Below, piece by piece: positions 11,106-21,507 of a DNA stretch of 32,000 bases. The position numbers and the translations under genes were made by a program. Under the pieces are notes generated by a model. It saw nothing but the letters and a program-made list of their open reading frames with translations. It searched no databases and was not told the DNA's origin. The DNA comes from Candidatus Merdicola sp. (GTDB taxonomy: Bacteria; Bacillota; Clostridia; TANB77; CAG-508), in NCBI GenBank assembly GCA_048393175.1, contig DBFJJM010000046.1:1-32000 (forward strand), written 5' to 3'. Each line of letters begins with the position of its first letter. Positions within the stretch are counted from its first letter, which is position 1.

Positions 11106-12155
11106 TTAATACTTATTTTGTATTTCTAATATCTTTTCATATTCATTGTTTAAAATATCTAAAAATAGCATAGCAATTTCTGGGTCAAACTGAGTCCCCA
11201 TATTTTTGGTGATTTCATCTTTTACTGTTTCGATTGGTAATGCATCACGATAAGTTCTTTTTGATGTCATAGCATCAAAACTATCTGCTACAGCCGTAAT
11301 TCTTGCTAAATAAGGAATACCTGTGCCACTTAATTTAGAAGGATACCCCTTTCCATCATATCTTTCATGATGATGTTTTACAATTGGCAAAATATCTGCA
11401 AAAATGCTGGCATTAGAAAGAATATGAACACCAATGGTAGGATGATTTTTAATTTGAGAATATTCATCATCAGAAAGTTTTGCTTCTTTTAGTAAAATAC
11501 TGTCTGGTACGCCAATTTTTCCAATATCATGAAATAAACCGCCAATTCGTAACGTATGAATTTCTTCTTTTGTTAACCCTAACTTTTCACCAATTAGAAC
11601 CGCAAAAGCGGAAACACGGTCAGAATGACCTTTCGTATAAGGGTCTTTGGCCTCTACCGTATAACGTAGTGTTTCGATACTTTCCATATAGGCTTTTTCT
11701 AACTTTTCGTATGTATCCGATAATTCGGTATTAATATTTTTTATTGTGTTCATTTGCTCGATTGATTTAATTCCTGACTCAATTAATAATAATAATTGGT
11801 CAAATTTATCACTTTTCTCGCAATATCCTTGAATATCTAATCTACGAATAGTTTCTAATGGTGGAGCTAAATCTTTATGTCCAGTTAGCAACAAAATATA
11901 TAAATCTTTATTAAATTTTCGAATTTCTTCTACTACTTGGTCACCATGAATAGGATACATGATAAAGTCTAACACCATAAGGTCAAAATGCTCTGTTTTT
12001 ACTTTTTCGATTGCATCTAAAGGATTTGTTACACCGGTAAAGTTATAACCAGAACGTTTTAAAAAAATAGATAAAGAATCTACAATTCCCATCTCATCAT
12101 CGACAGCAATTATTTTATAACCAGAAGATTCTTTTGTTTGCATATTTTTTCTCAT
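11106..12155 (-). CDS. response regulator with REC domain fused to an HD-GYP domain (c-di-GMP phosphodiesterase type)
   Basis: REC region IIAVDDEMGIVD...DLMVLDFIMP-like...LLTGH. HD-GYP motifs HSDRV, GGLFHDIGK and HHERYDGKGYP. No DNA-binding domain. RBS GAGGTGA. Confidence 0.9.
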   Translation of the reverse strand: MRKNMQTKESSGYKIIAVDDEMGIVDSLSIFLKRSGYNFTGVTNPLDAIEKVKTEHFDLMVLDFIMYPIHGDQVVEEIRKFNKDLYILLLTGHKDLAPPLETIRRLDIQGYCEKSDKFDQLLLLIESGIKSIEQMNTIKNINTELSDTYEKLEKAYMESIETLRYTVEAKDPYTKGHSDRVSAFAVLIGEKLGLTKEEIHTLRIGGLFHDIGKIGVPDSILLKEAKLSDDEYSQIKNHPTIGVHILSNASIFADILPIVKHHHERYDGKGYPSKLSGTGIPYLARITAVADSFDAMTSKRTYRDALPIETVKDEITKNMGTQFDPEIAMLFLDILNNEYEKILEIQNKY

Positions 12156-12182
12156 GATATCACCTCTATTTTAGATACCTAT

Positions 12183-12211
12183 ATTATATATAACTAAGTA
12201 TGGAAAAGCAA
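12183..12211 (-). promoter_or_regulatory. sigma-A type promoter for the response-regulator gene
   Basis: On the minus strand: TTGCTT (12211-12206), 17-nt spacer, consensus TATAAT (12188-12183), about 28 nt upstream of the RR start. Confidence 0.4.
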
Positions 12212-12241
12212 GAAAAAAGAAAGATTTTGTAGAGAAAAGAA

Positions 12242-12278
12242 GATATTTACGGGTAGATTGAATCTATCCGTAAATATC
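12242..12278 (-). terminator. strong hairpin (terminator/attenuator-like) between the HK and RR genes
   Basis: 17-bp inverted repeat GATATTTACGGGTAGAT / ATCTATCCGTAAATATC with a 3-nt loop. It has one G-T/C-A imperfection. It starts 12 nt after the HK stop and is followed on the minus strand by CTTCTTTTCTCT. Confidence 0.45.
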
Positions 12279-12289
12279 CGTGAAAAATA

Positions 12290-14101
12290 TTAATCTAAAG
12301 GTAAAGTAATATTAAAACATGTACCTTTTCCTACTTCAGAGGTAAAATCAATGTTACCTCCAAAATGTGCTTTAATGGTAGAATAAGACATAAATAGACC
12401 AAGACCAGTTCCGTTTTTACCTTTTGTTGTAATCATTTCCTTAAACAATTTATGTTTTACTTCTTCTGTCATTCCTATACCGTAATCACGAATAGAGATA
12501 ATGATACTATTTGGAGTAGAAGAAATAACACTTAAATCAATATCTTGATTTGATTTACCATTATAGGATTGAATGGAGTTAGAAATCATATTATTGACTA
12601 CTTGTACTAAGCTGTTAACATCTCCTTTTATAGTGGTATTAGAATTGATTTCGATATGGATATTTAAGTTAATAAGGGCATTTTTCAGTTCATGTTTCAT
12701 CAAAATATCAATACGTTTCATTAATTCATCAATGGTAAATTCCATATTTTCATCAGAAGAAAGAGTAACCGCTTGTCCCTTAACAGCAGTAATAACATCT
12801 GACATGTATTCAGTATAGTCTTTTATTTTAACTACCCAAGAAGACATATCTTTGGCAATATCATGATGGTCTTTTTTCGTTACTTCAGGGTCATCGATAG
12901 AAATATCATATTCTTTTATTAAATCATTTAATCCCTCTGCAGCACCAGAAATGGACATAATTGGTGTTTTTAAGTTATGTGCGATTCCCCCTATTAATTG
13001 TCCTAAAGAAGCCAAACGTTCTTTTTCCATTAACATATCTTGATTATTCTTAATTGTTTGAATATCTAGCATATGTTGGGTGGTATCTTTAAATAAAATC
13101 AAAGTACCAATAAATTCATTGTCTGCGGTTAAATTATTAATCTCAATAATAAAATATTTACTAATATTTTGAACTTTTTGATTATATTGAAATGTTTTTG
13201 TAGAGTTTTTTACTTTTGTTAAAATATCTTGAAGAGTTTTTGTATCGACTTCAAACAAACTATTTTCTTGTAAAACTTTTGATAATTCTAAATTACGAAT
13301 CTTAGAGCCGGATAAATGAAACGTATTTAGAAAAGTTTGATTAAAATCAATAATCACATTTTCGTCATTTAATACAATATAGCCATCTGAAATACGGTCT
13401 ACAATTTTTTGCAAAGCAATAGGAGTAATAGTTAAAAATTTAAATTTAAAAATAGCAAGGACAAAAAAAAGCAAAGTAAAGGTAAAAGAAATTGGCATTA
13501 AATATACCACCATAGGAATACCGAATAAACCAAGAATGTTTACCAAAATGGGTAGTAACATTCCAATGACAATAAGCAAAGATTGCTTAGAAAAAAATCC
13601 GGAATTTTTAATAGAGTAACGTAATAAGTAAAAAAATCCCAATGCTATAATGACATAGGTATAAATAGAATGAATTGGAAAATATGGTCCAAAAATAGTA
13701 TCTGTAATGTGAATAGAATACTGTTCATAAAATAGATGATGGTAATCATTGGTAAAAAGTAGGATAATATCTAAAATAGGAATGATAAAAAATAATAGAT
13801 GATACCAATGAAAGGATACTTTTGTTTTATCGAAAATGTATCCAATAGCACAAAAGGCAAGAGGAGCAAAACAGGCACCAAAGGCGGCATAATATTCAAA
13901 ACGAATGGGAAGAATATTGCTGTTTTGGAAAGTAATTTGCAAAATTAAGCAAAACGTCCAGATAAACATAAAAGAAAGTAATGCAATAAACGCTTTTTGA
14001 ATTTGTCCTTTATGTTTTTTTGAATATAAAATAACAAGTAATAGAACAATAGTAATAATTTCAGAAAAAATCATAGCAATTAAGTAAGATAAATTTTCCA
14101 T
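12290..14101 (-). CDS. sensor histidine kinase with N-terminal 7-TM receptor module, PAS-like domain, HisKA and HATPase_c
   Basis: About 7 predicted TM helices in aa 1-230. H-box GGIAHNLKTPI. ATPase motifs NNMISNSIQS (N box), RDYGIGM (G1) and GTGLGL (G2). RBS AAGGAGGG. The start lies only 14 nt after the NRPS stop. Confidence 0.9.
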   Translation of the reverse strand: MENLSYLIAMIFSEIITIVLLLVILYSKKHKGQIQKAFIALLSFMFIWTFCLILQITFQNSNILPIRFEYYAAFGACFAPLAFCAIGYIFDKTKVSFHWYHLLFFIIPILDIILLFTNDYHHLFYEQYSIHITDTIFGPYFPIHSIYTYVIIALGFFYLLRYSIKNSGFFSKQSLLIVIGMLLPILVNILGLFGIPMVVYLMPISFTFTLLFFVLAIFKFKFLTITPIALQKIVDRISDGYIVLNDENVIIDFNQTFLNTFHLSGSKIRNLELSKVLQENSLFEVDTKTLQDILTKVKNSTKTFQYNQKVQNISKYFIIEINNLTADNEFIGTLILFKDTTQHMLDIQTIKNNQDMLMEKERLASLGQLIGGIAHNLKTPIMSISGAAEGLNDLIKEYDISIDDPEVTKKDHHDIAKDMSSWVVKIKDYTEYMSDVITAVKGQAVTLSSDENMEFTIDELMKRIDILMKHELKNALINLNIHIEINSNTTIKGDVNSLVQVVNNMISNSIQSYNGKSNQDIDLSVISSTPNSIIISIRDYGIGMTEEVKHKLFKEMITTKGKNGTGLGLFMSYSTIKAHFGGNIDFTSEVGKGTCFNITLPLD

Positions 14102-14115
14102 AAAAATGCCCTCCT

Positions 14116-17100
14116 TTAAATTAAGTTAATTTTTCTTAAATAGTCTACATAATGCTTAATATAGTTTTTATCAATTTGTGGCCAATGAAAACCAAAATGG
14201 TGTAATACAGCACGGCTAAATTCGGATACAATTGAAATATTGGAGCTATAGTCTACCTTCTGCTGTTTATCGAAGTCGTTAATAATGCCGGAAAGCAGTA
14301 TCTTTTTCTCTGGTAAAGAAGAAATTTGCTGTATTTTATGTGAAAAAGATTCATGACTTAAAGGCTGGATGGAAAAGCCCTCTTCGTCCAATTGATGTAT
14401 CAAATTTTTAATCATTACATGATTATTATCATAAAGATGAAAAACAGAGAAATCTTTATAATCATTTTGCATAATAGTAACAATAGCTTGTGCACAAGCA
14501 TCAACAGGTGTAAATTCCACATAAGAAGAGAGTAAATAGTCTGGTATAGAGCCAATTTGAATAAAGGCAAGTAAACGATTAACAAACGCATTTTCTGTTG
14601 CATTTAATTGAAAGACGCCATCATAATAACGACTGGTAATATTACCTAGACGTAAGATTTGAGCATCTAGATTGTTTTTTACTTGGTTTTCTAAAATTAA
14701 TTTTTCAGCATCAAATTTACTTTTTATATACACGTTTTCTAATACTTGACCAATATATAAATTCTTTTCACAAAAATTCATTTTCTTTAAAATAGCATTC
14801 TGTCTTGTTTTAGCATCTCCATCTAAAGACATATTTCCTGAAATGCTAAGAGAAGATAAGTGAAGAAGGCGTTTTTTATTTTGCAAACAAAAATGAATCA
14901 TATTTTTGGTGGCATCTACATTAATTGCTGTAAATTTATCAATATCCCCATAATGTTTTACCATGGCGGCAGCATTTATTACAACCGAAATTTGTTCTTT
15001 TAATTGAGATAAGACTAAATGAGATAAATCAAAATTTTCTTTGGTCACTTCTCCTTCTAAAATTTTAATACGTTTTCCCACTTCTGAATCAAAATGAGTC
15101 CCAAAATAGAAATGTAATACCCTCATAAAACGGTCATATGCAGAAATCCCATTTTTAGAACGAACAACACAAAAGATAGTTCCCCTATCGTGTATTAAAA
15201 GACTAGCTAGAATATGAACTCCTACAAAACCATTAGCACCTAGTAATAAGACATGATTATTGGTATTTGTTAATAAGTTAGATTTTTGGAAAAATGAAAT
15301 ATCATTTTTTTCTAATTGTTTGTTAATTTTACAATAATCATAAGTATCAATTAGGTTTGTTTTTTCTTTTTCTTTATTCTCTTCGTAATAAGAAGAAAGT
15401 TCTTTTATCGTTTTATATCGGAAAAAGTCAGCATAATCGATGTTAATATTGTGAGAAAGTAATTCTATTTTGTATTTAATAATCAGCAAAGAATCTACTC
15501 CTAAATCAAAGATATTGTCTTGGATTCCTACTTTAGTATGAAGTAATTTTTCCCAACAATCACAAAGTATTTTTTCAATAGCTGTAGTAGGTGCTATGTA
15601 GTCAGAAGAATTCTTCTGGATAGAATAGGTTGCTAAAATTTTTGTATCAATTTTTCCATTTAACGTAATAGGGAAATTATCTAGCTGTGTAAAATAATTA
15701 GGTATCATATATTCTGGAAGAGTAGTTAATAAAGAAGTACGTATCTGACTCGGCGTAATTGCTTTACGTATAGTGTAAAAAGCAGATAAATAGCTGTTAT
15801 TTTCTATTTTCTGATAAAGAACGACTGCTTTATCAATTTCGGGAAGATTCATTAATTGTTTTTCAATTTCAGACAGTTCAATACGAAGTCCGTGAATTTT
15901 AATTTGATTATCTTTTCTTCCTAAATAAGCAATTTCTGCACAAGGTAAATATTTTCCCCTATCACCAGTTCGATACATCGTACCTGTTCCGAAGGGATTG
16001 GGAACAAAAGCTTTTTTAGTAGCTTCTATATTTTTCAAATAACCTTTTGAAACGCCATCTCCTACAACACAGATTTCGCCTGGTATACCAATAGGGCATA
16101 AATTAAGGTCAGAGTTGCAAATCAATAATTCTGTGTTATAAATTGGTTTTCCAATGGTAATTTGGTCTTTTTTCATTACTTTTTTATTAGAACAACAAGC
16201 CGTGATTTCAGAAGGTCCATAGCCATTAAAAATAGTTGCTTTAGTAAAATGTTCTAATTTTTCATATAGAGAAGAGGTAAAGATTTCTCCTCCTAATTGA
16301 ATTATTTTTAAGTCAGATAGACTTTTTCGTGAAATTTCATTTAAAAGCATTAATTCAATTCTAGAAGGGGTTGTTAGTATAAAATCAATTTTTTGTTCTA
16401 ACAATAATTTTGCAATTTCAGTTGGTATTTTTTGCTGTTCCTGATTTGTTAGTACAAGTGTTTTTCCCGAAAGAAGCGGAACAAAAGTTTCAACAATAAA
16501 CATATCAAAAGAAACAGCACTAATACTAATAAACTTTTCGCAACAATCAGTATGAAGTTGCTTTTGATAACTAAGAATCATATTTAGAATACCTAAGTTT
16601 TTAAGCATAATTCCTTTTGGTTTTCCAGTTGAGCCAGAAGTGTAAATGACACAAAAAGTGTTGTCATTAGAAGGTAAAATAGATAAATCAAGACAAGAGT
16701 ATTTATCAAGAGGAATATCTTCTATAAAACTAATTTTCCAATCTATTTTCTTCATATGTTTATCTTGAATTAATAAAGCGGCATCGCTATCTTGTAACAT
16801 ATAAGTAATACGCTCTGGTGGTAAGTTTGGGTCAATTAATAAATAAGAAGCTCCTGTTTTTAAAATTCCTAGTATCGTGTAATAGATAGCAGGAGTACGA
16901 GATAGCATTACTGCAATGGTATCATTTTTACTAATAGAAAAGTTGTTTAATAAATAATTAGCAAATTGATTGGAGGTATTATTTAAATTTTCATAAGTAA
17001 TCGTTTGTCCTTCAAAGATAATAGCAGGTTTTGTTTTATTTTCCTTTGCCTTTTCATAAAAAGTACGAATCAGTGCTTTTTCTTTGTTATATTTTCTAAC

Positions 17101-20100
17101 TGTATTGTTATATTCATATAAAATAAAATCTTTTTCTGTTTCCGAAACAAGAGGAATATCTGCTATTCTAATTTGTATGTTTTCTAAAACTTGATGCAAA
17201 ATCTCACAAAAATGGTCTGCTAAACGAGTTATATCATTTTCATCAAATAACGAAGTAGCGTATTCAAATTGAATAGTAAGATGGTCTGTATATGGTTTTA
17301 CTTCTACTGTAAGGTCAAATTTAGAAATAGAAGATTCAGGTTCATAAAATAGGTCTGAGGGCATATTATTTTGATAAACAAACATCGTATCAAACAAGGC
17401 ATTTCTAGAAGCGGATGGTTTAATTTGTAAATCTTTTAAAAGTAAATCAAAAGGATAATCTTGATGGTCAAAAGCTTCTATATAATGAGCCGTGACTTGT
17501 TTTACGAAAGATAAAAAAGAATCATCACTAGAAAGTTGAGTTCGTAATACTAAAGTATTAACAAACATACCTATGGTTTTTTCTAGTTCTGGATGAGTAC
17601 GACCAGATGTTGGCGTGCCAACAAGGAAATCTTTTTGGTCTGTATAATGGTAAAGTAAAATATAATAAATGCATAGCAAAAAGGAAAAAGGAGTAGTATG
17701 ATACTGTTTACAAAAAGAAAGAATGTTATTTTTTTCTGCTTCTGAGATAATACGACTAATGTGTGCTCCTTTATAATCTTTTTTTTCTGGTCTAGAAAAA
17801 GTAGTTGGTAGGGTAAGCAAAGGAAGTTCACCAGCCAACAGTTCTAACCAATACTCTTTGTCTTGCTGTACCTTAGTAGAGTGTAGCTGTTTTTCTTCCC
17901 ATATAGCAAAATCTTTATATTGTAAAGAATAAGAGGAAAGAGTTTTTCCGTTATACAATTCAAACAGTTCTTCTACAAGAATAGACACAGAGACCCCATC
18001 GCAAATAATATGGTGTAAATCAAGTAGTAAAATAGCCTTTTTATTTTCTATCCTAACTAATAAAGCTCTAAAAAGCGGAGCTTTACTTAAATTAAAAGGT
18101 TTAACAAAAGACTTAAATGTAGAATCTATCTGCTTTTCTTCAATACAAACTGTTTCTAATTTGTAATCAAAAGAAGGGGAAATCTTTTGAACCACTTCTT
18201 CTTTTTGAAAAATAAAAGAAGTACGAAGAGAATCGTGGCGTTTTATTAACTTGTTTAATGCTTGTTCTAATCTTACTTTATCAGGAATGGTTTCGAACAA
18301 AATCCCGCCAGGTATGTTATAAACAGTAGAAGCCGGATTCGTCATACAAGTTAAAAAAATTCGTTTTTGAGCGTGAGACAAAGGATAAGAATCGAATATA
18401 GGAGCAGGGGTAATGACTGTTTTTTCACTTTCTTGTTTGTCTGGTTTTATCTCTTGAATATATTGAGCTAGTGATTTTATGGTTGTATATTCAAAGATTT
18501 CTTTTACTTGTAATTTCACATCAAAGTGACTATAAATAGCAGTAATTAATTTAATCGCACAAAGAGAATCCCCACCTAATTCAAAGAAATCACTATTTCT
18601 TCCTATTTCACCAAAGTTTAAAATATTTTTCCAGATAGAAACAAGTTGTTTTTCGGTTTCTGTTTGTGGTTTTTCTTTTTGATAAGTAATGATGACTTCA
18701 GGCAATTTGGATTTGTCAACTTTTCCATTTGCATTAAGAGGTAGAGTTTCCATTTTAACAAAATGAGAAGGAACCATGTAATAAGGTAATTTTTTTCGTA
18801 ATTCTCTTTTTATATCTTCTATCTTTAAATTTGGGTCACATGTTAGATAAGCACAAATACTATCAATTTGATTTACTGACTTAATGATAACAGATGCATT
18901 ACCAATAGAGGAAAGATTTTTCAAGACAGATTCGATTTCCTCTAATTCGATACGAAGACCTCTTAATTTAACTTGGTAATCATGGCGTCCAACAAATTCA
19001 ATTTCTCCCTTTTTATCAAAGCGAGCTAAATCGCCAGACAAATATAACTCTCCTTTACCAAAAGGATTTGGAATAAAGGATGTTTGCGTTGCTTTTTCGT
19101 TATAAAGATATCCGTCTGAAACGCCTTCTCCTGCAATACACAATTGTCCTGTTACGCCAACAGGACATAAATTCATATCTTGATTACAGATATAAATTTG
19201 TACATTAGGATACGGTTTTCCAATAGAAATATGTTCAGAAGAAACAATTTCCTTTGTAGAACAGCAAGCTGTTGTTTCAGAGGGACCATATCCATTAAAA
19301 ATGTGGGCATTAGTATAGGTTTTTACTTTTTCAAAAAAAGAACATGTTAAACTTTCTCCTCCTAATTGCATTGCTTTTAAATAAGTTAAACATGTGTTAG
19401 TGGTAGAAGAAGAAAGTAAAGCCTCTAGTTTAGAAGGAGTAATTAGCATGAATTCTGGCTTTTGTCTTCTAATTAATTGACTAAGGTCAATTGGATTTTT
19501 TTGTTCTTCTTCATTTGCTAGTACTAACTTTTTTCCAGATAAAAGGCAAATCCAAATCTCAGCTGCAAACATATCAAAAGAAACGGCACAAATACTAAGA
19601 AATGTTTTATATTTTTTTATATTCATCATAGATTGATAGCCATTTACTAGATTTAACATACTAGAGCGTTTTAATAAAATTCCTTTTGGTTTTCCGGTTG
19701 AACCAGAAGTATAGACAACAGACAAATTTCTTTGATTTGAAATAAAACTAGTAATTGGCTTGGATGATAAAGAGGATATTTCTAATTTATTTAAAGATAC
19801 TTGAGGGATAGAAAAAGTCAAATGAGAAAAACAAGTGTTAGTAAGCAGCAAATTAGTATGGCTATTTTCTATCATATATTGGAGTCTTTCTTCTGGTAAA
19901 GAAGCATCCATTATCATATAACTACAACCTGCTTTTAAGATTGCTATCATAGAAAACACAATCTCAGGAGAACGTTTTAATAAAATACCAACCACCTGAT
20001 TTGGCCTGGTAAAAGTAGTAATATGGTTTGCAAGACAATTTGTATAATAATCAATTTCTTCATAACTATAATTTCTGTTTTCAAAAACAAGAGCTGCTTT

Positions 20101-21507: not shown

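What the first reader, a model, noticed from the sequence alone, without database searches (positions are those of the whole stretch)
14116..21507. C-A-T-C-A-T-R NRPS: predicted (N-acyl) dipeptide aldehyde / pyrazinone synthetase
Seen: there are two complete modules, a terminal SDR-type reductase (GANGFVG, YxxxK) instead of a thioesterase, and an extra N-terminal C domain. There are no epimerase or methyltransferase domains, and no MbtH or PPTase gene in the window. Established: reductive release gives peptide aldehydes, and free-amine dipeptide aldehydes cyclise to dihydropyrazinones/pyrazinones. Examples are AusA/aureusimine-phevalin and the human-gut Clostridia NRPS family reported by Guo et al., Cell 2017, whose products inhibit cathepsin-type proteases. 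Inference: this locus belongs to that class. Its product and role are unknown. The GC content and codon usage of the NRPS match the flanks, which argues against recent acquisition.
Basis: partly seen in the sequence, partly recalled or inferred. Interest (0 to 1): 0.75.

Follow-up and report, generated by a model that had tools for sequence, protein, structure and literature searches.

The report
Peptide-aldehyde synthetase paired with sensor kinase
This is an intact two-module peptide-making enzyme that most likely releases a fatty-acylated dipeptide aldehyde; in hundreds of gut and other metagenome contigs it is followed directly by the same membrane sensor kinase and cyclic-di-GMP regulator, which hints that the peptide is tied to a signalling circuit.

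Summary
Window 14116-21507 (-) is one 2463-aa ORF with C-A-T-C-A-T-R architecture. All core motifs are intact and every domain is under purifying selection.

Membership of the AusA equivalog family fails, and membership of the Guo et al. gut family could not be tested.

The N-terminal C domain belongs to a clade made up only of N-terminal C domains. It is conserved and selected, and a divergent acyl-CoA-ligase-like gene sits next to it. I therefore favour an N-acyl dipeptide aldehyde over a pyrazinone.

The NRPS stop codon lies 14 bp from the start of a 7TM histidine kinase, followed by a REC-HD-GYP response regulator. This NRPS-kinase(-regulator) order recurs:
- in 14 loci fetched through the NRPS or, in one case, the kinase, in four genomic contexts with 25-58% GC;
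- in 66 of 67 kinase-anchored metagenome loci.

Predicted amino-acid specificities vary widely across the family, and the kinase's sensor domain diverges together with the NRPS. That covariation is fully explained by co-inheritance with the intervening R domain, so it is not independent proof of ligand-receptor pairing.

Verdict: a new variant of a known kind, of moderate to high interest.

The parts
14116..21507 (-). NRPS gene, 2463 aa, C-A-T-C-A-T-R
   Evidence: ORF; Pfam and NCBIfam. dN/dS is 0.18 against the 96%-identical strain L092.
20182..21507 (-). C1: N-terminal, starter-type condensation domain (aa 1-442), HHIISDA at aa 132-138
   Evidence: It is 26% identical to C2. Its best hits outside its own family are N-terminal C domains only. 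dN/dS is 0.15. H132, H133 and D137 are invariant in 16 family members.
18688..20142 (-). A1 adenylation domain (about aa 456-940), pocket code DMALQGGACK
   Evidence: Pfam and NCBIfam; motifs. The code was read by alignment to GrsA-PheA, whose numbering was verified against 1AMU.
18457..18648 (-). T1 carrier domain (aa 954-1017), Ser981 in LGGDSL
17116..18414 (-). C2: canonical LCL-type condensation domain (aa 1032-1464), HHIICDG
   Evidence: Matches the TycC PCP-C structure 2JGP at E 3e-86. Hits internal C domains of many phyla at 250-316 bits.
15622..17058 (-). A2 adenylation domain (about aa 1484-1962), pocket code DMVLQGGACK
15382..15576 (-). T2 carrier domain (approximately aa 1978-2042), Ser2006 in LGVDSL
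   Evidence: second PP-binding stretch; motif position. The boundaries are approximate.
14116..15252 (-). R: terminal SDR-type thioester reductase (aa 2086-2463); GANGFVG, Ser2219, Tyr2260, Lys2264
   Evidence: NAD_binding_4, E 1e-40. PDB 6VTJ E 7e-58 and AusA-R 4F6C E 3e-34. dN/dS is 0.13.
14102..14115 (-). 14-bp NRPS-kinase junction carrying AGGAGG; no terminator
   Evidence: Sequence read. No terminator-like site lies in the NRPS-kinase junction (14102-14115); a weak 5-bp hairpin sits inside the NRPS gene at 14486-14499.
12290..14101 (-). Sensor histidine kinase, 603 aa: HisKA_7TM sensor (aa 14-227), PAS-like linker, HisKA, HATPase_c
   Evidence: Pfam. Directly follows the NRPS in 14 loci fetched through the NRPS or, in one case, the kinase, and in 66 of 67 kinase-anchored metagenome loci. 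dN/dS is 0.12.
11106..12155 (-). Response regulator, 349 aa: REC plus HD-GYP (HD at aa 209, HHE at 262, GYP at 270); predicted c-di-GMP phosphodiesterase
   Evidence: Pfam and NCBIfam; motifs. Found downstream of the kinase in 55 of 57 metagenome loci that have at least 3 kb downstream.
21651..23393 (+). Divergently transcribed ANL-family acyl-CoA-ligase-like enzyme, 580 aa, with no carrier domain
   Evidence: Pfam AMP-binding plus AMP-binding_C_3. Nearest solved structures are malonyl-CoA synthetase, MenE and FadD13, about E 1e-35. Present next to the NRPS in 7 of 11 syntenic species-level loci. dN/dS is 0.16.
21508..21650 (.). 143-bp divergent intergenic region between the NRPS and the ligase (putative promoters)
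   Evidence: Sequence read; promoter-like hexamers. These are consensus matches only.

Best explanation
The gene encodes a functional two-module NRPS.

Proposed mechanism:
- The starter-type C1 domain acylates the first carrier-bound amino acid with an acyl thioester. The donor is probably an acyl-CoA made by the divergently encoded ligase (inferred).
- C2, an LCL-type domain, joins the two L-amino acids. Their binding pockets are almost identical: DMALQGGACK and DMVLQGGACK. These codes match no canonical code that I know (comparison from memory; no predictor was run). From memory of known codes, the small residues at positions 301, 322 and 330 and the 'CK' ending suggest a large hydrophobic or aromatic side chain, but this is low confidence.
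- The terminal SDR-type R domain releases the N-acyl dipeptidyl thioester with NAD(P)H as an aldehyde.

The gene is co-transcribed with a 7TM sensor histidine kinase and followed by a REC-HD-GYP response regulator. The three genes form one conserved unit. The peptide aldehyde is therefore functionally coupled to a two-component, c-di-GMP-degrading pathway; it is not just a stand-alone secreted protease inhibitor.

Shown: architecture, motif integrity, purifying selection, homology of the R domain, the operon-like junction, and the conserved gene order.

Inferred: the acyl donor, the amino-acid identities, the 2-electron release, and the nature of the coupling to the kinase.
For: - Architecture and motifs.
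- R domain homologous to aldehyde-forming AusA-R and to Mru_0351-R.
- C2 is a canonical LCL domain.
- C1 is a distinct N-terminal-only clade with a conserved HHxxxD motif.
- dN/dS is 0.12-0.24 for six of the seven NRPS domains (0.55 for the short T2 domain, from 13 substitutions) and for the kinase and ligase.
- The ligase is adjacent and divergent.
- The NRPS-kinase junction is 14 bp with AGGAGG and no terminator.
- The NRPS-kinase(-regulator) order is kept in the syntenic clade. It is also kept in three unrelated genomic contexts with 26%, 51% and 58% GC (L003, L081, L055).
- Starting from the kinase in an independent metagenome collection, 66 of 67 loci have an R domain ending less than 400 bp upstream. 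All 54 loci with at least 8 kb upstream have the whole NRPS.
- The HD-GYP motifs are intact.
Against: - No product chemistry is available.
- Sequence cannot distinguish 2-electron from 4-electron reduction (PMC8024701).
- C1's nearest solved structure is an LCL domain (TycC, 108 bits), not a characterised lipoinitiation domain (RzmA 60 bits, CDA-C1 46 bits).
- The ligase is absent from 4 of 11 syntenic relatives and from the three non-syntenic loci. Its substrate is unknown.
- No PPTase is present in the window.
- The covariation of the kinase sensor domain with the A-domain codes disappears once R-domain identity is controlled for. It therefore does not independently prove that the kinase senses the product.
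Confidence: 0.65

Rival explanations
1. The enzyme behaves like AusA. C1 is skipped or inactive, a free-amine dipeptide aldehyde is released, and it cyclises spontaneously to a dihydropyrazinone or pyrazinone.
For: - The R domain is homologous to AusA-R.
- Published summaries say the gut dipeptide aldehydes were isolated as pyrazinones (PMC12327764; PMC8210680).
- The ligase is missing in several relatives.
- Pyrazinones are known bacterial signals (my own knowledge), which would fit the adjacent kinase.
Against: - C1 keeps its catalytic HHxxxD in all 16 aligned members.
- C1 is under purifying selection, dN/dS 0.15.
- An N-terminal C domain of this clade is present in all 18 fetched family loci where the NRPS 5' end could be scored.
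- An N-acylated amine cannot form a pyrazinone (established chemistry).
Confidence: 0.22
2. The R domain carries out a four-electron reduction and releases an (N-acyl) dipeptide alcohol, as in the myxochelin and myxalamid-type reductases.
For: The R domain also matches MxaA-R (4U7W, E 8e-16) and the MxcG model. The extent of reduction cannot be read from sequence (PMC8024701).
Against: The match to aldehyde-forming AusA-R is much stronger (E 3e-34 against 8e-16).
Confidence: 0.1
3. The adjacency of the kinase and regulator is only inherited gene order with no functional link. The NRPS product is a secreted protease inhibitor aimed at host or competitor proteases, as proposed for the gut family.
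For: - Most loci belong to one syntenic clade, htrA-NRPS-kinase-regulator-tex.
- Covariation of the sensor domain with the A-domain codes is explained by co-inheritance with the R domain.
- Published work assigns cathepsin inhibition to related aldehydes (PMC12282076; PMC10794557).
Against: - The same NRPS-kinase order, with gaps of 4-16 bp, is kept in three loci with unrelated flanks and 26-58% GC. Two of the three also have the HD-GYP regulator.
- It is kept in 66 of 67 kinase-anchored loci.
- Other neighbours come and go: DUF975, the ligase, an inserted guanylate kinase, an inverted regulator.
- A protease-inhibitor role and a signalling role are not mutually exclusive.
Confidence: 0.3
4. 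C1 receives an aminoacyl or peptidyl chain from a separate NRPS module encoded elsewhere, so the product is longer than a dipeptide.
For: C1's best solved-structure match is an elongation-type C domain. Trimodular relatives exist at the same locus.
Against: - There is no other NRPS gene, carrier protein or docking region in the window or in any of the syntenic loci.
- C1 begins at residue 1.
- C1 groups only with N-terminal C domains.
Confidence: 0.05
5. The gene is a decaying or silent relic.
For: Two neighbouring genes, tex and htrA, are split into two ORFs. No PPTase is present in the window.
Against: - The 7.4-kb reading frame is uninterrupted.
- All motifs are intact.
- dN/dS is 0.18 over 262 substitutions against a second strain.
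- The exact protein is found on three contigs.
Confidence: 0.03

Closest known systems
AusA/PznA aureusimine (phevalin, tyrvalin) synthetase of Staphylococcus aureus
   Same: Both are dimodular NRPSs ending in an SDR-type R domain that releases a dipeptide aldehyde. The R domains are homologous (4F6C, E 3e-34). The AusA model is the best NCBIfam hit.
   Different: - AusA is A-T-C-A-T-R with no N-terminal C domain.
- The equivalog cut-off is not reached (1437 against 2500 bits).
- There is no ausB-like PPTase next to the gene.
- The A-domain codes differ.
- AusA is not paired with a 7TM kinase and HD-GYP regulator (that last point is my own knowledge).
Human-gut Clostridia dipeptide-aldehyde NRPS family (Donia 2014; Guo et al., Cell 2017) and the R. 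bromii ruminopeptin (rup) NRPS (Schneider and Balskus 2018)
   Same: The predicted chemistry is the same: reductive release of an (N-acyl) dipeptide. The hosts are Clostridia. Relatives of this locus occur on contigs named 'human gut metagenome'. Reviews describe N-acyl tails that stabilise the aldehyde (PMC8210680).
   Different: - Sequence relatedness could not be tested, because neither the papers nor the sequences are held.
- The Blautia-type loci I could fetch are A-T-C-A-T-C-A-T-R with a MATE transporter, have no kinase, and are at most 28% identical.
- None of the close relatives inspected carried an organism name; the only named ones are uncultured 'Clostridia bacterium' MAGs.
- None of the text I could read reports a conserved kinase and HD-GYP partner.
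Mru_0351 NRPS of Methanobrevibacter ruminantium M1 (PCP-R structures 6VTJ and 6VTZ)
   Same: This is the closest solved structure to the T2-R end (E 7e-58, aligned over 406 residues). It is also from a gut or rumen anaerobe, and its product is likewise unknown (PMC8024701).
   Different: The host is an archaeon. Only the PCP-R didomain was compared. No link to a kinase is known.
Lipoinitiation by starter C domains (surfactin SrfA-A, CDA, rhizomide RzmA)
   Same: An N-terminal C domain with no upstream carrier domain, a catalytic HHxxxD motif, and an acyl-activating enzyme encoded nearby.
   Different: C1 is only distantly related to the solved starter domains (RzmA 60 bits, SrfA starter 55 bits, CDA-C1 46 bits). 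No acyl carrier protein is present. The ligase looks like a generic acyl-CoA synthetase, not a FAAL.
Signal-synthase and sensor-kinase cassettes (agr-type, and pyrazinone or AI-3-type signalling)
   Same: The synthase gene is directly coupled to a membrane sensor kinase. Synthase specificity varies widely between species, and the sensor domain evolves faster (47% identity) than the kinase core (67%).
   Different: - The signal would be a non-ribosomal peptide aldehyde.
- The output is an HD-GYP phosphodiesterase, not a transcription factor.
- No experimental link exists.
- The covariation is explained by physical linkage.

Membership tests
AusA aureusimine synthetase (NCBIfam NF047350, equivalog) | Whole-protein score at or above the curated cut-off of 2500 bits | tested here: not met
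   1437.2 bits, aligned only over aa 993-2459.
AusA aureusimine synthetase (NCBIfam NF047350, equivalog) | A-T-C-A-T-R architecture without an N-terminal C domain | tested here: not met
   An extra C domain lies at aa 1-442.
AusA aureusimine synthetase (NCBIfam NF047350, equivalog) | Terminal thioester reductase homologous to AusA-R | tested here: met
   4F6C, E 3.2e-34 over aa 2084-2460.
AusA aureusimine synthetase (NCBIfam NF047350, equivalog) | Adjacent PPTase gene (ausB) | tested here: not met
   No Sfp-type motif or PPTase Pfam hit in the window.
Reductase-terminated NRPS releasing a peptide aldehyde (functional class) | Complete modules with intact A-domain core motifs, carrier serines and C-domain HHxxxD | tested here: met
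   These residues are invariant across 16 family members.
Reductase-terminated NRPS releasing a peptide aldehyde (functional class) | R domain with a GxxGxxG Rossmann motif and a Ser/Thr-Tyr-Lys triad | tested here: met
   GANGFVG at 2090-2096, S2219 (Thr in relatives), Y2260, K2264.
Reductase-terminated NRPS releasing a peptide aldehyde (functional class) | Two-electron (aldehyde) and not four-electron (alcohol) release | not testable with these tools
   PMC8024701 states that sequence and structure do not yet distinguish the two.
Reductase-terminated NRPS releasing a peptide aldehyde (functional class) | The gene is maintained by selection | tested here: met
   dN/dS is 0.18 overall, 0.15 for C1 and 0.13 for R, against strain L092.
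Human-gut Clostridia dipeptide-aldehyde NRPS family (Guo et al. 2017) | Sequence or gene-cluster similarity to the published 47 clusters or the MIBiG entries | not tested
   The papers and sequences are not held. The Blautia loci L056 and L050 differ in architecture and are at most 28% identical.
Human-gut Clostridia dipeptide-aldehyde NRPS family (Guo et al. 2017) | The host is a gut Clostridium-class bacterium | tested here: inconclusive
   Syntenic relatives are titled 'Clostridia bacterium' MAGs. Relatives lie on contigs named 'human-gut-metagenome'. The habitat of the window's own samples is not known.
Lipoinitiation starter C domain | An N-terminal C domain with no upstream carrier domain and a catalytic HHxxxD | tested here: met
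   C1 is placed at aa 1-442 with HHIISDA.
Lipoinitiation starter C domain | Groups with starter and not elongation C domains | tested here: inconclusive
   Among 331 C domains, C1's best hits are N-terminal domains only: the family itself plus a Paenibacillus NRPS at 193 bits, against at most 145 bits for internal domains. Against solved structures, however, an LCL domain scores higher (108 bits) than the known starter domains (46-60 bits).
Lipoinitiation starter C domain | A dedicated acyl-activating enzyme in the cluster | tested here: inconclusive
   A ligase is present in the window and in 6 further syntenic loci. It is absent in 4 syntenic and 3 non-syntenic loci. Its substrate is unknown.
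Signal synthase and cognate sensor kinase pair | Synthase-kinase adjacency is conserved across lineages and genomic contexts | tested here: met
   Kept in 14 loci fetched through the NRPS or, in one case, the kinase, in 4 contexts with 25-58% GC, and in 66 of 67 kinase-anchored loci.
Signal synthase and cognate sensor kinase pair | The sensor domain co-varies with synthase specificity beyond what shared descent or linkage explains | tested here: not met
   The Mantel correlation is r = 0.57 (p <= 0.0002), and 0.55 after controlling for the kinase core. It falls to -0.08 for the A2 code and 0.11 for both codes once R-domain identity is controlled for.
Signal synthase and cognate sensor kinase pair | The kinase binds or responds to the product | not testable with these tools
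   This needs biochemistry.

The most novel reading that the evidence does not exclude
The NRPS, the 7TM histidine kinase and the REC-HD-GYP regulator form a non-ribosomal autoinducer circuit in uncultured gut Clostridia. The (N-acyl) dipeptide aldehyde, or a pyrazinone derived from it, is the self-made signal. The co-transcribed 7TM kinase is its receptor, and the output is c-di-GMP hydrolysis. The many different A-domain code combinations and the fast-evolving sensor domain would then represent species-specific signal 'dialects'. This would give gut peptide aldehydes a native role other than host-protease inhibition.
Probability: 0.27. Interest if true: 0.85.

Novelty: new variant of a known kind. 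Interest (0 to 1): 0.6.

Why it matters
Reductase-terminated dipeptide NRPSs of gut Clostridia are known for products that inhibit host cathepsins. Why the bacteria make them is still an open question.

This locus shows that one large lineage of such synthetases is almost invariably fused into an operon-like unit with a membrane sensor kinase and a c-di-GMP phosphodiesterase. Apart from a few uncultured MAGs, its members are known only from metagenome contigs. The amino-acid specificities of the synthetase are shuffled from species to species.

That provides a concrete, testable hypothesis for the native function, namely signalling through c-di-GMP. It also provides a defined receptor candidate, and a panel of naturally varied synthetase-kinase pairs with which to test specificity.

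Tried and rejected
- **Primary papers.** I tried to read Guo et al. 2017 (by DOI and PMC5302092) and the Milshteyn review (PMC7232905); none is held. The Schneider and Balskus paper has no PMC id in the reference list. Details of the gut family therefore rest on secondary summaries and on memory.
- **Genome-contig scan with the NRPS alignment.** The generic TSGSTGxPKG pattern saturated it. It returned mostly unrelated NRPSs, with a best hit of 37%. It was still useful for L003, L055, L081 and as a C-domain reference set.
- **Organism name.** Cluster look-ups and an ABC-F search returned no organism names for the close relatives. A search for the accession strings in the literature found nothing.
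- **Rfam.** No RNA family is found in the window.
- **Promoter and terminator scans.** The counts are no higher than in shuffled sequence. I used them only to show there is no terminator at the NRPS-kinase junction.
- **Strain comparison.** The divergence peak at the R-kinase junction is one of several mosaic dips between the two strains, so I did not interpret it as special.
- **Sensor-specificity covariation.** It looked strong but vanished after controlling for R-domain identity. I rejected it as independent evidence for receptor-ligand co-evolution.
- **Substrate prediction.** The codes DMALQGGACK and DMVLQGGACK match no canonical code that I know, so only a low-confidence guess is given.
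- **Ligase typing.** The nearest structures are generic acyl-CoA synthetases, and FAAL identity is not supported.
Full report
**Observation**

The window carries a single uninterrupted ORF at 14116-21507 on the minus strand, 2463 aa. Pfam finds two Condensation domains, two AMP-binding domains, two PP-binding domains and a C-terminal NAD_binding_4 / SDR domain. This is C-A-T-C-A-T-R, with no epimerisation or methyltransferase domain.

- HHIISDA in C1 and HHIICDG in C2.
- Motifs A3, A5, A6, A7, A8, A9 and A10 in both modules.
- Carrier serines S981 and S2006.
- In the R domain, GANGFVG and Y2260xxxK2264.

The third triad residue is Ser2219, where most relatives have Thr. That is a conservative change for an SDR.

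A six-frame motif scan and Pfam scans of the neighbours find no MbtH, PPTase, thioesterase or free carrier protein. GC content matches the flanks.

**Is the gene functional?**

The exact protein is encoded on three metagenome contigs. A second strain, L092, carries a 96%-identical copy. Against that strain the gene has 152 synonymous and 110 non-synonymous differences, giving dN/dS 0.18. The extra C1 domain has 0.15 and the R domain 0.13. The gene is under purifying selection along its length.

**The domains**

- The R domain matches the PCP-R didomain of Mru_0351 from Methanobrevibacter ruminantium (6VTJ, E 7e-58). It matches the aldehyde-forming AusA R domain (4F6C, E 3e-34) much better than the alcohol-forming MxaA R domain (E 8e-16) (the identity of 6VTJ was confirmed in PMC8024701). 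The same paper states that the extent of reduction cannot yet be predicted, so 'aldehyde' remains an inference.
- C2 is a textbook LCL domain (TycC 2JGP, E 3e-86).
- C1 is only 26% identical to C2 and scores just 108 bits against any solved C domain. I compared it with 331 C domains extracted from all fetched loci. Its best hits outside its own family were exclusively N-terminal C domains: the family members and an N-terminal C domain of a Paenibacillus NRPS. No internal C domain exceeded 145 bits. C1 starts at residue 1, keeps H132, H133 and D137 in all aligned relatives, and has no upstream carrier.
- I read C1 as a starter-type domain that N-acylates the first residue. It is not close to the characterised lipoinitiation domains, so this stays an inference.
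- A 580-aa ANL-family ligase without a carrier domain is transcribed divergently, 143 bp away. Its nearest structures are generic acyl-CoA synthetases. It is the obvious candidate supplier of the acyl-CoA, but it is absent from some relatives.

**Substrates**

I verified the GrsA-PheA numbering against 1AMU and extracted the ten pocket residues. A1 is DMALQGGACK and A2 is DMVLQGGACK. The two domains are only 41% identical overall yet share 9 of 10 pocket residues, so the two residues of the dipeptide are probably the same or very similar. The code matches no canonical specificity that I know (comparison from memory; no predictor was run). The small residues at positions 301, 322 and 330 and the 'CK' ending suggest a large hydrophobic or aromatic side chain. 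This is a low-confidence guess from memory of known codes.

**Context: the main new finding**

The NRPS stop codon is followed after 14 bp, which contain AGGAGG, by the start of a 603-aa histidine kinase. The kinase has a HisKA_7TM membrane sensor, a PAS-like linker and a kinase core. No terminator-like site lies in the junction itself; a weak 5-bp hairpin sits inside the NRPS gene at 14486-14499.

Next comes a REC-HD-GYP response regulator with intact HD, HHE and GYP motifs. This is a predicted c-di-GMP phosphodiesterase, not a transcription factor.

I then looked up the contigs of relatives whose NRPSs are 35-64% identical:
- Every one has the order htrA-[ligase]-NRPS-kinase-regulator-...-tex. 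This includes two trimodular (C-A-T)x3-R versions of about 3520 aa.
- The order is not merely inherited synteny. In three loci with unrelated flanks and very different base composition, a C-A-T-C-A-T-R NRPS with the same C1 type is followed after 4-16 bp by a HisKA_7TM kinase. These are L003 (26% GC), L081 (51% GC) and L055 (58% GC). In two of them a REC-HD-GYP regulator follows as well.

The reciprocal test starts from the kinase:
- One kinase homologue chosen blind led back to a ligase-NRPS-kinase-regulator locus.
- A kinase-anchored scan of the metagenome collection returned 80 loci, several on contigs named 'human gut metagenome'.
- In 66 of the 67 loci with at least 1.5 kb upstream, an R domain ends less than 400 bp upstream on the same strand.
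- All 54 loci with at least 8 kb upstream carry a whole NRPS (53 dimodular, 1 trimodular).
- The regulator is present in 55 of the 57 loci with at least 3 kb downstream.

By contrast, reductase-terminated NRPSs of another type (Blautia L056 and L050: A-T-C-A-T-C-A-T-R next to a MATE gene) have no such kinase.

**Diversity and covariation**

Across 46 dereplicated loci the A-domain codes are shuffled extensively. Gly-, Thr-, Pro- and Val-like codes occur, along with several unassigned codes such as DIYTVGIILK, DIFQTAGVFK, DVWYLGGICK and DMVLQGGACK.

The kinase's 7TM sensor is much more divergent (mean 47% identity) than its kinase core (67%). Sensor identity correlates with code similarity:
- Mantel r = 0.57, p <= 0.0002.
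- r = 0.55 after controlling for the kinase core.
- The kinase core does not correlate once the sensor is controlled for.

I tested whether this is more than physical linkage by controlling for identity of the R domain, which lies between A2 and the sensor. The A2-sensor correlation vanished (r = -0.08), and only a weak A1 signal remained (r = 0.21).

The honest conclusion is that the NRPS and the sensor half of the kinase are inherited and diversify as one block, decoupled from the kinase core and, in the first ten loci, from tex. This does not by itself prove ligand-receptor co-evolution.

**Mechanism I commit to**

- The ligase, or general metabolism, supplies an acyl-CoA.
- C1 N-acylates residue 1 on T1.
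- C2 couples it to residue 2 on T2.
- R releases an N-acyl dipeptide aldehyde.
- The gene is expressed together with a 7TM kinase that phosphorylates an HD-GYP regulator, so production of the aldehyde is coupled to c-di-GMP turnover.

Confidence is about 0.65 for the enzymology plus the functional unit. It is about 0.27 that the product, or its pyrazinone, is the kinase's own ligand.

The rivals are release as a free-amine aldehyde that cyclises to a pyrazinone, four-electron release to an alcohol, a purely historical adjacency, a trans-acting upstream module, and a silent relic. They are weighed in the rival list.

**Comparison with what is known**

- The enzyme works like AusA and the gut dipeptide-aldehyde synthetases. 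These are summarised in PMC8210680, PMC12327764, PMC12282076, PMC10794557 and PMC10039858.
- It is not an AusA equivalog. Membership of the published gut family could not be tested.
- None of the close relatives inspected in the protein searches carried an organism name; the only named ones are uncultured 'Clostridia bacterium' MAGs.
- I found no mention of a conserved HisKA_7TM and HD-GYP partner in the text I could search. HisKA_7TM is a sensor domain for which the text I could read names no ligand (PMC5847659).

**Verdict**

This is a real, intact, selected NRPS of a known chemical class. It belongs to a large, uncharacterised lineage defined by a conserved partnership with a sensor kinase and a c-di-GMP phosphodiesterase. 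I rate it a new variant of a known kind, with interest 0.6.

Noticed in passing
window 7951-9225 and 9161-10102 (+): The Tex (YqgF/S1) gene is split into two overlapping ORFs in different frames. The same split is present in the 96%-identical strain L092, and a different split occurs in L088. Most relatives have one 717-730-aa gene. There is no obvious homopolymer at the junction. This is either a conserved frameshift or pseudogene, or recoding.
   Followed up: partly
window 23414-24298 and 24228-24590 (+): The HtrA-like serine protease is split into a protease ORF and a PDZ ORF. The same split occurs in L092, and L083 has a different split. Other relatives have one 370-396-aa gene. htrA is the constant divergent neighbour of the NRPS or ligase in the syntenic clade, but not in L003, L055 or L081. 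It is curious to find a serine protease next to a predicted protease-inhibitor synthetase.
   Followed up: partly
window 11106-14400 compared with L092: Divergence between the two strains is mosaic. The response regulator is 100% identical at the nucleotide level. The kinase is 93% identical. The stretch covering the 3' end of the R domain and the kinase 7TM region (13500-14400) is only about 88-90% identical. Similar dips occur elsewhere, for example at 27000-28200. This suggests recombination.
   Followed up: partly
loci L093 and L094; L171: The same chromosomal slot holds trimodular (C-A-T)x3-R synthetases of about 3520-3570 aa in some species, so module number varies within the family.
   Followed up: partly
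L087 3157-9534 and 9557-10684: In the closest other species (64% identity) the R domain is a separate 375-aa ORF, 22 bp after a C-A-T-C-A-T protein. This is either a real split or a frameshift.
   Followed up: no
L056 7932-16931; L050 3540-12500: MAGs of Blautia and of another Clostridia bacterium carry a different reductase-terminated NRPS type: A-T-C-A-T-C-A-T-R of about 3000 aa, next to a MATE transporter and without a kinase. This may be closer to the published Blautia or Ruminococcus dipeptide-aldehyde clusters.
   Followed up: partly
window 470-3019 (+): An iron-type alcohol dehydrogenase and an aldehyde dehydrogenase (LuxC-like hit) lie 11 kb from the NRPS. An Aldedh gene is also in the flanks of L095 and L089. 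No functional link to the aldehyde product has been shown.
   Followed up: no
R domain, aa 2056-2461 (window 14122-15342): The closest solved structure is from a rumen methanogen NRPS (Mru_0351, 6VTJ) and not from a bacterium. This hints at gene transfer between gut Clostridia and Methanobrevibacter.
   Followed up: no
window 26407-26760 (+) and the adjacent small HTH ORF: A DUF2975 membrane protein paired with an HTH_26 regulator, together with DUF4153, recurs beside htrA in several syntenic loci.
   Followed up: no
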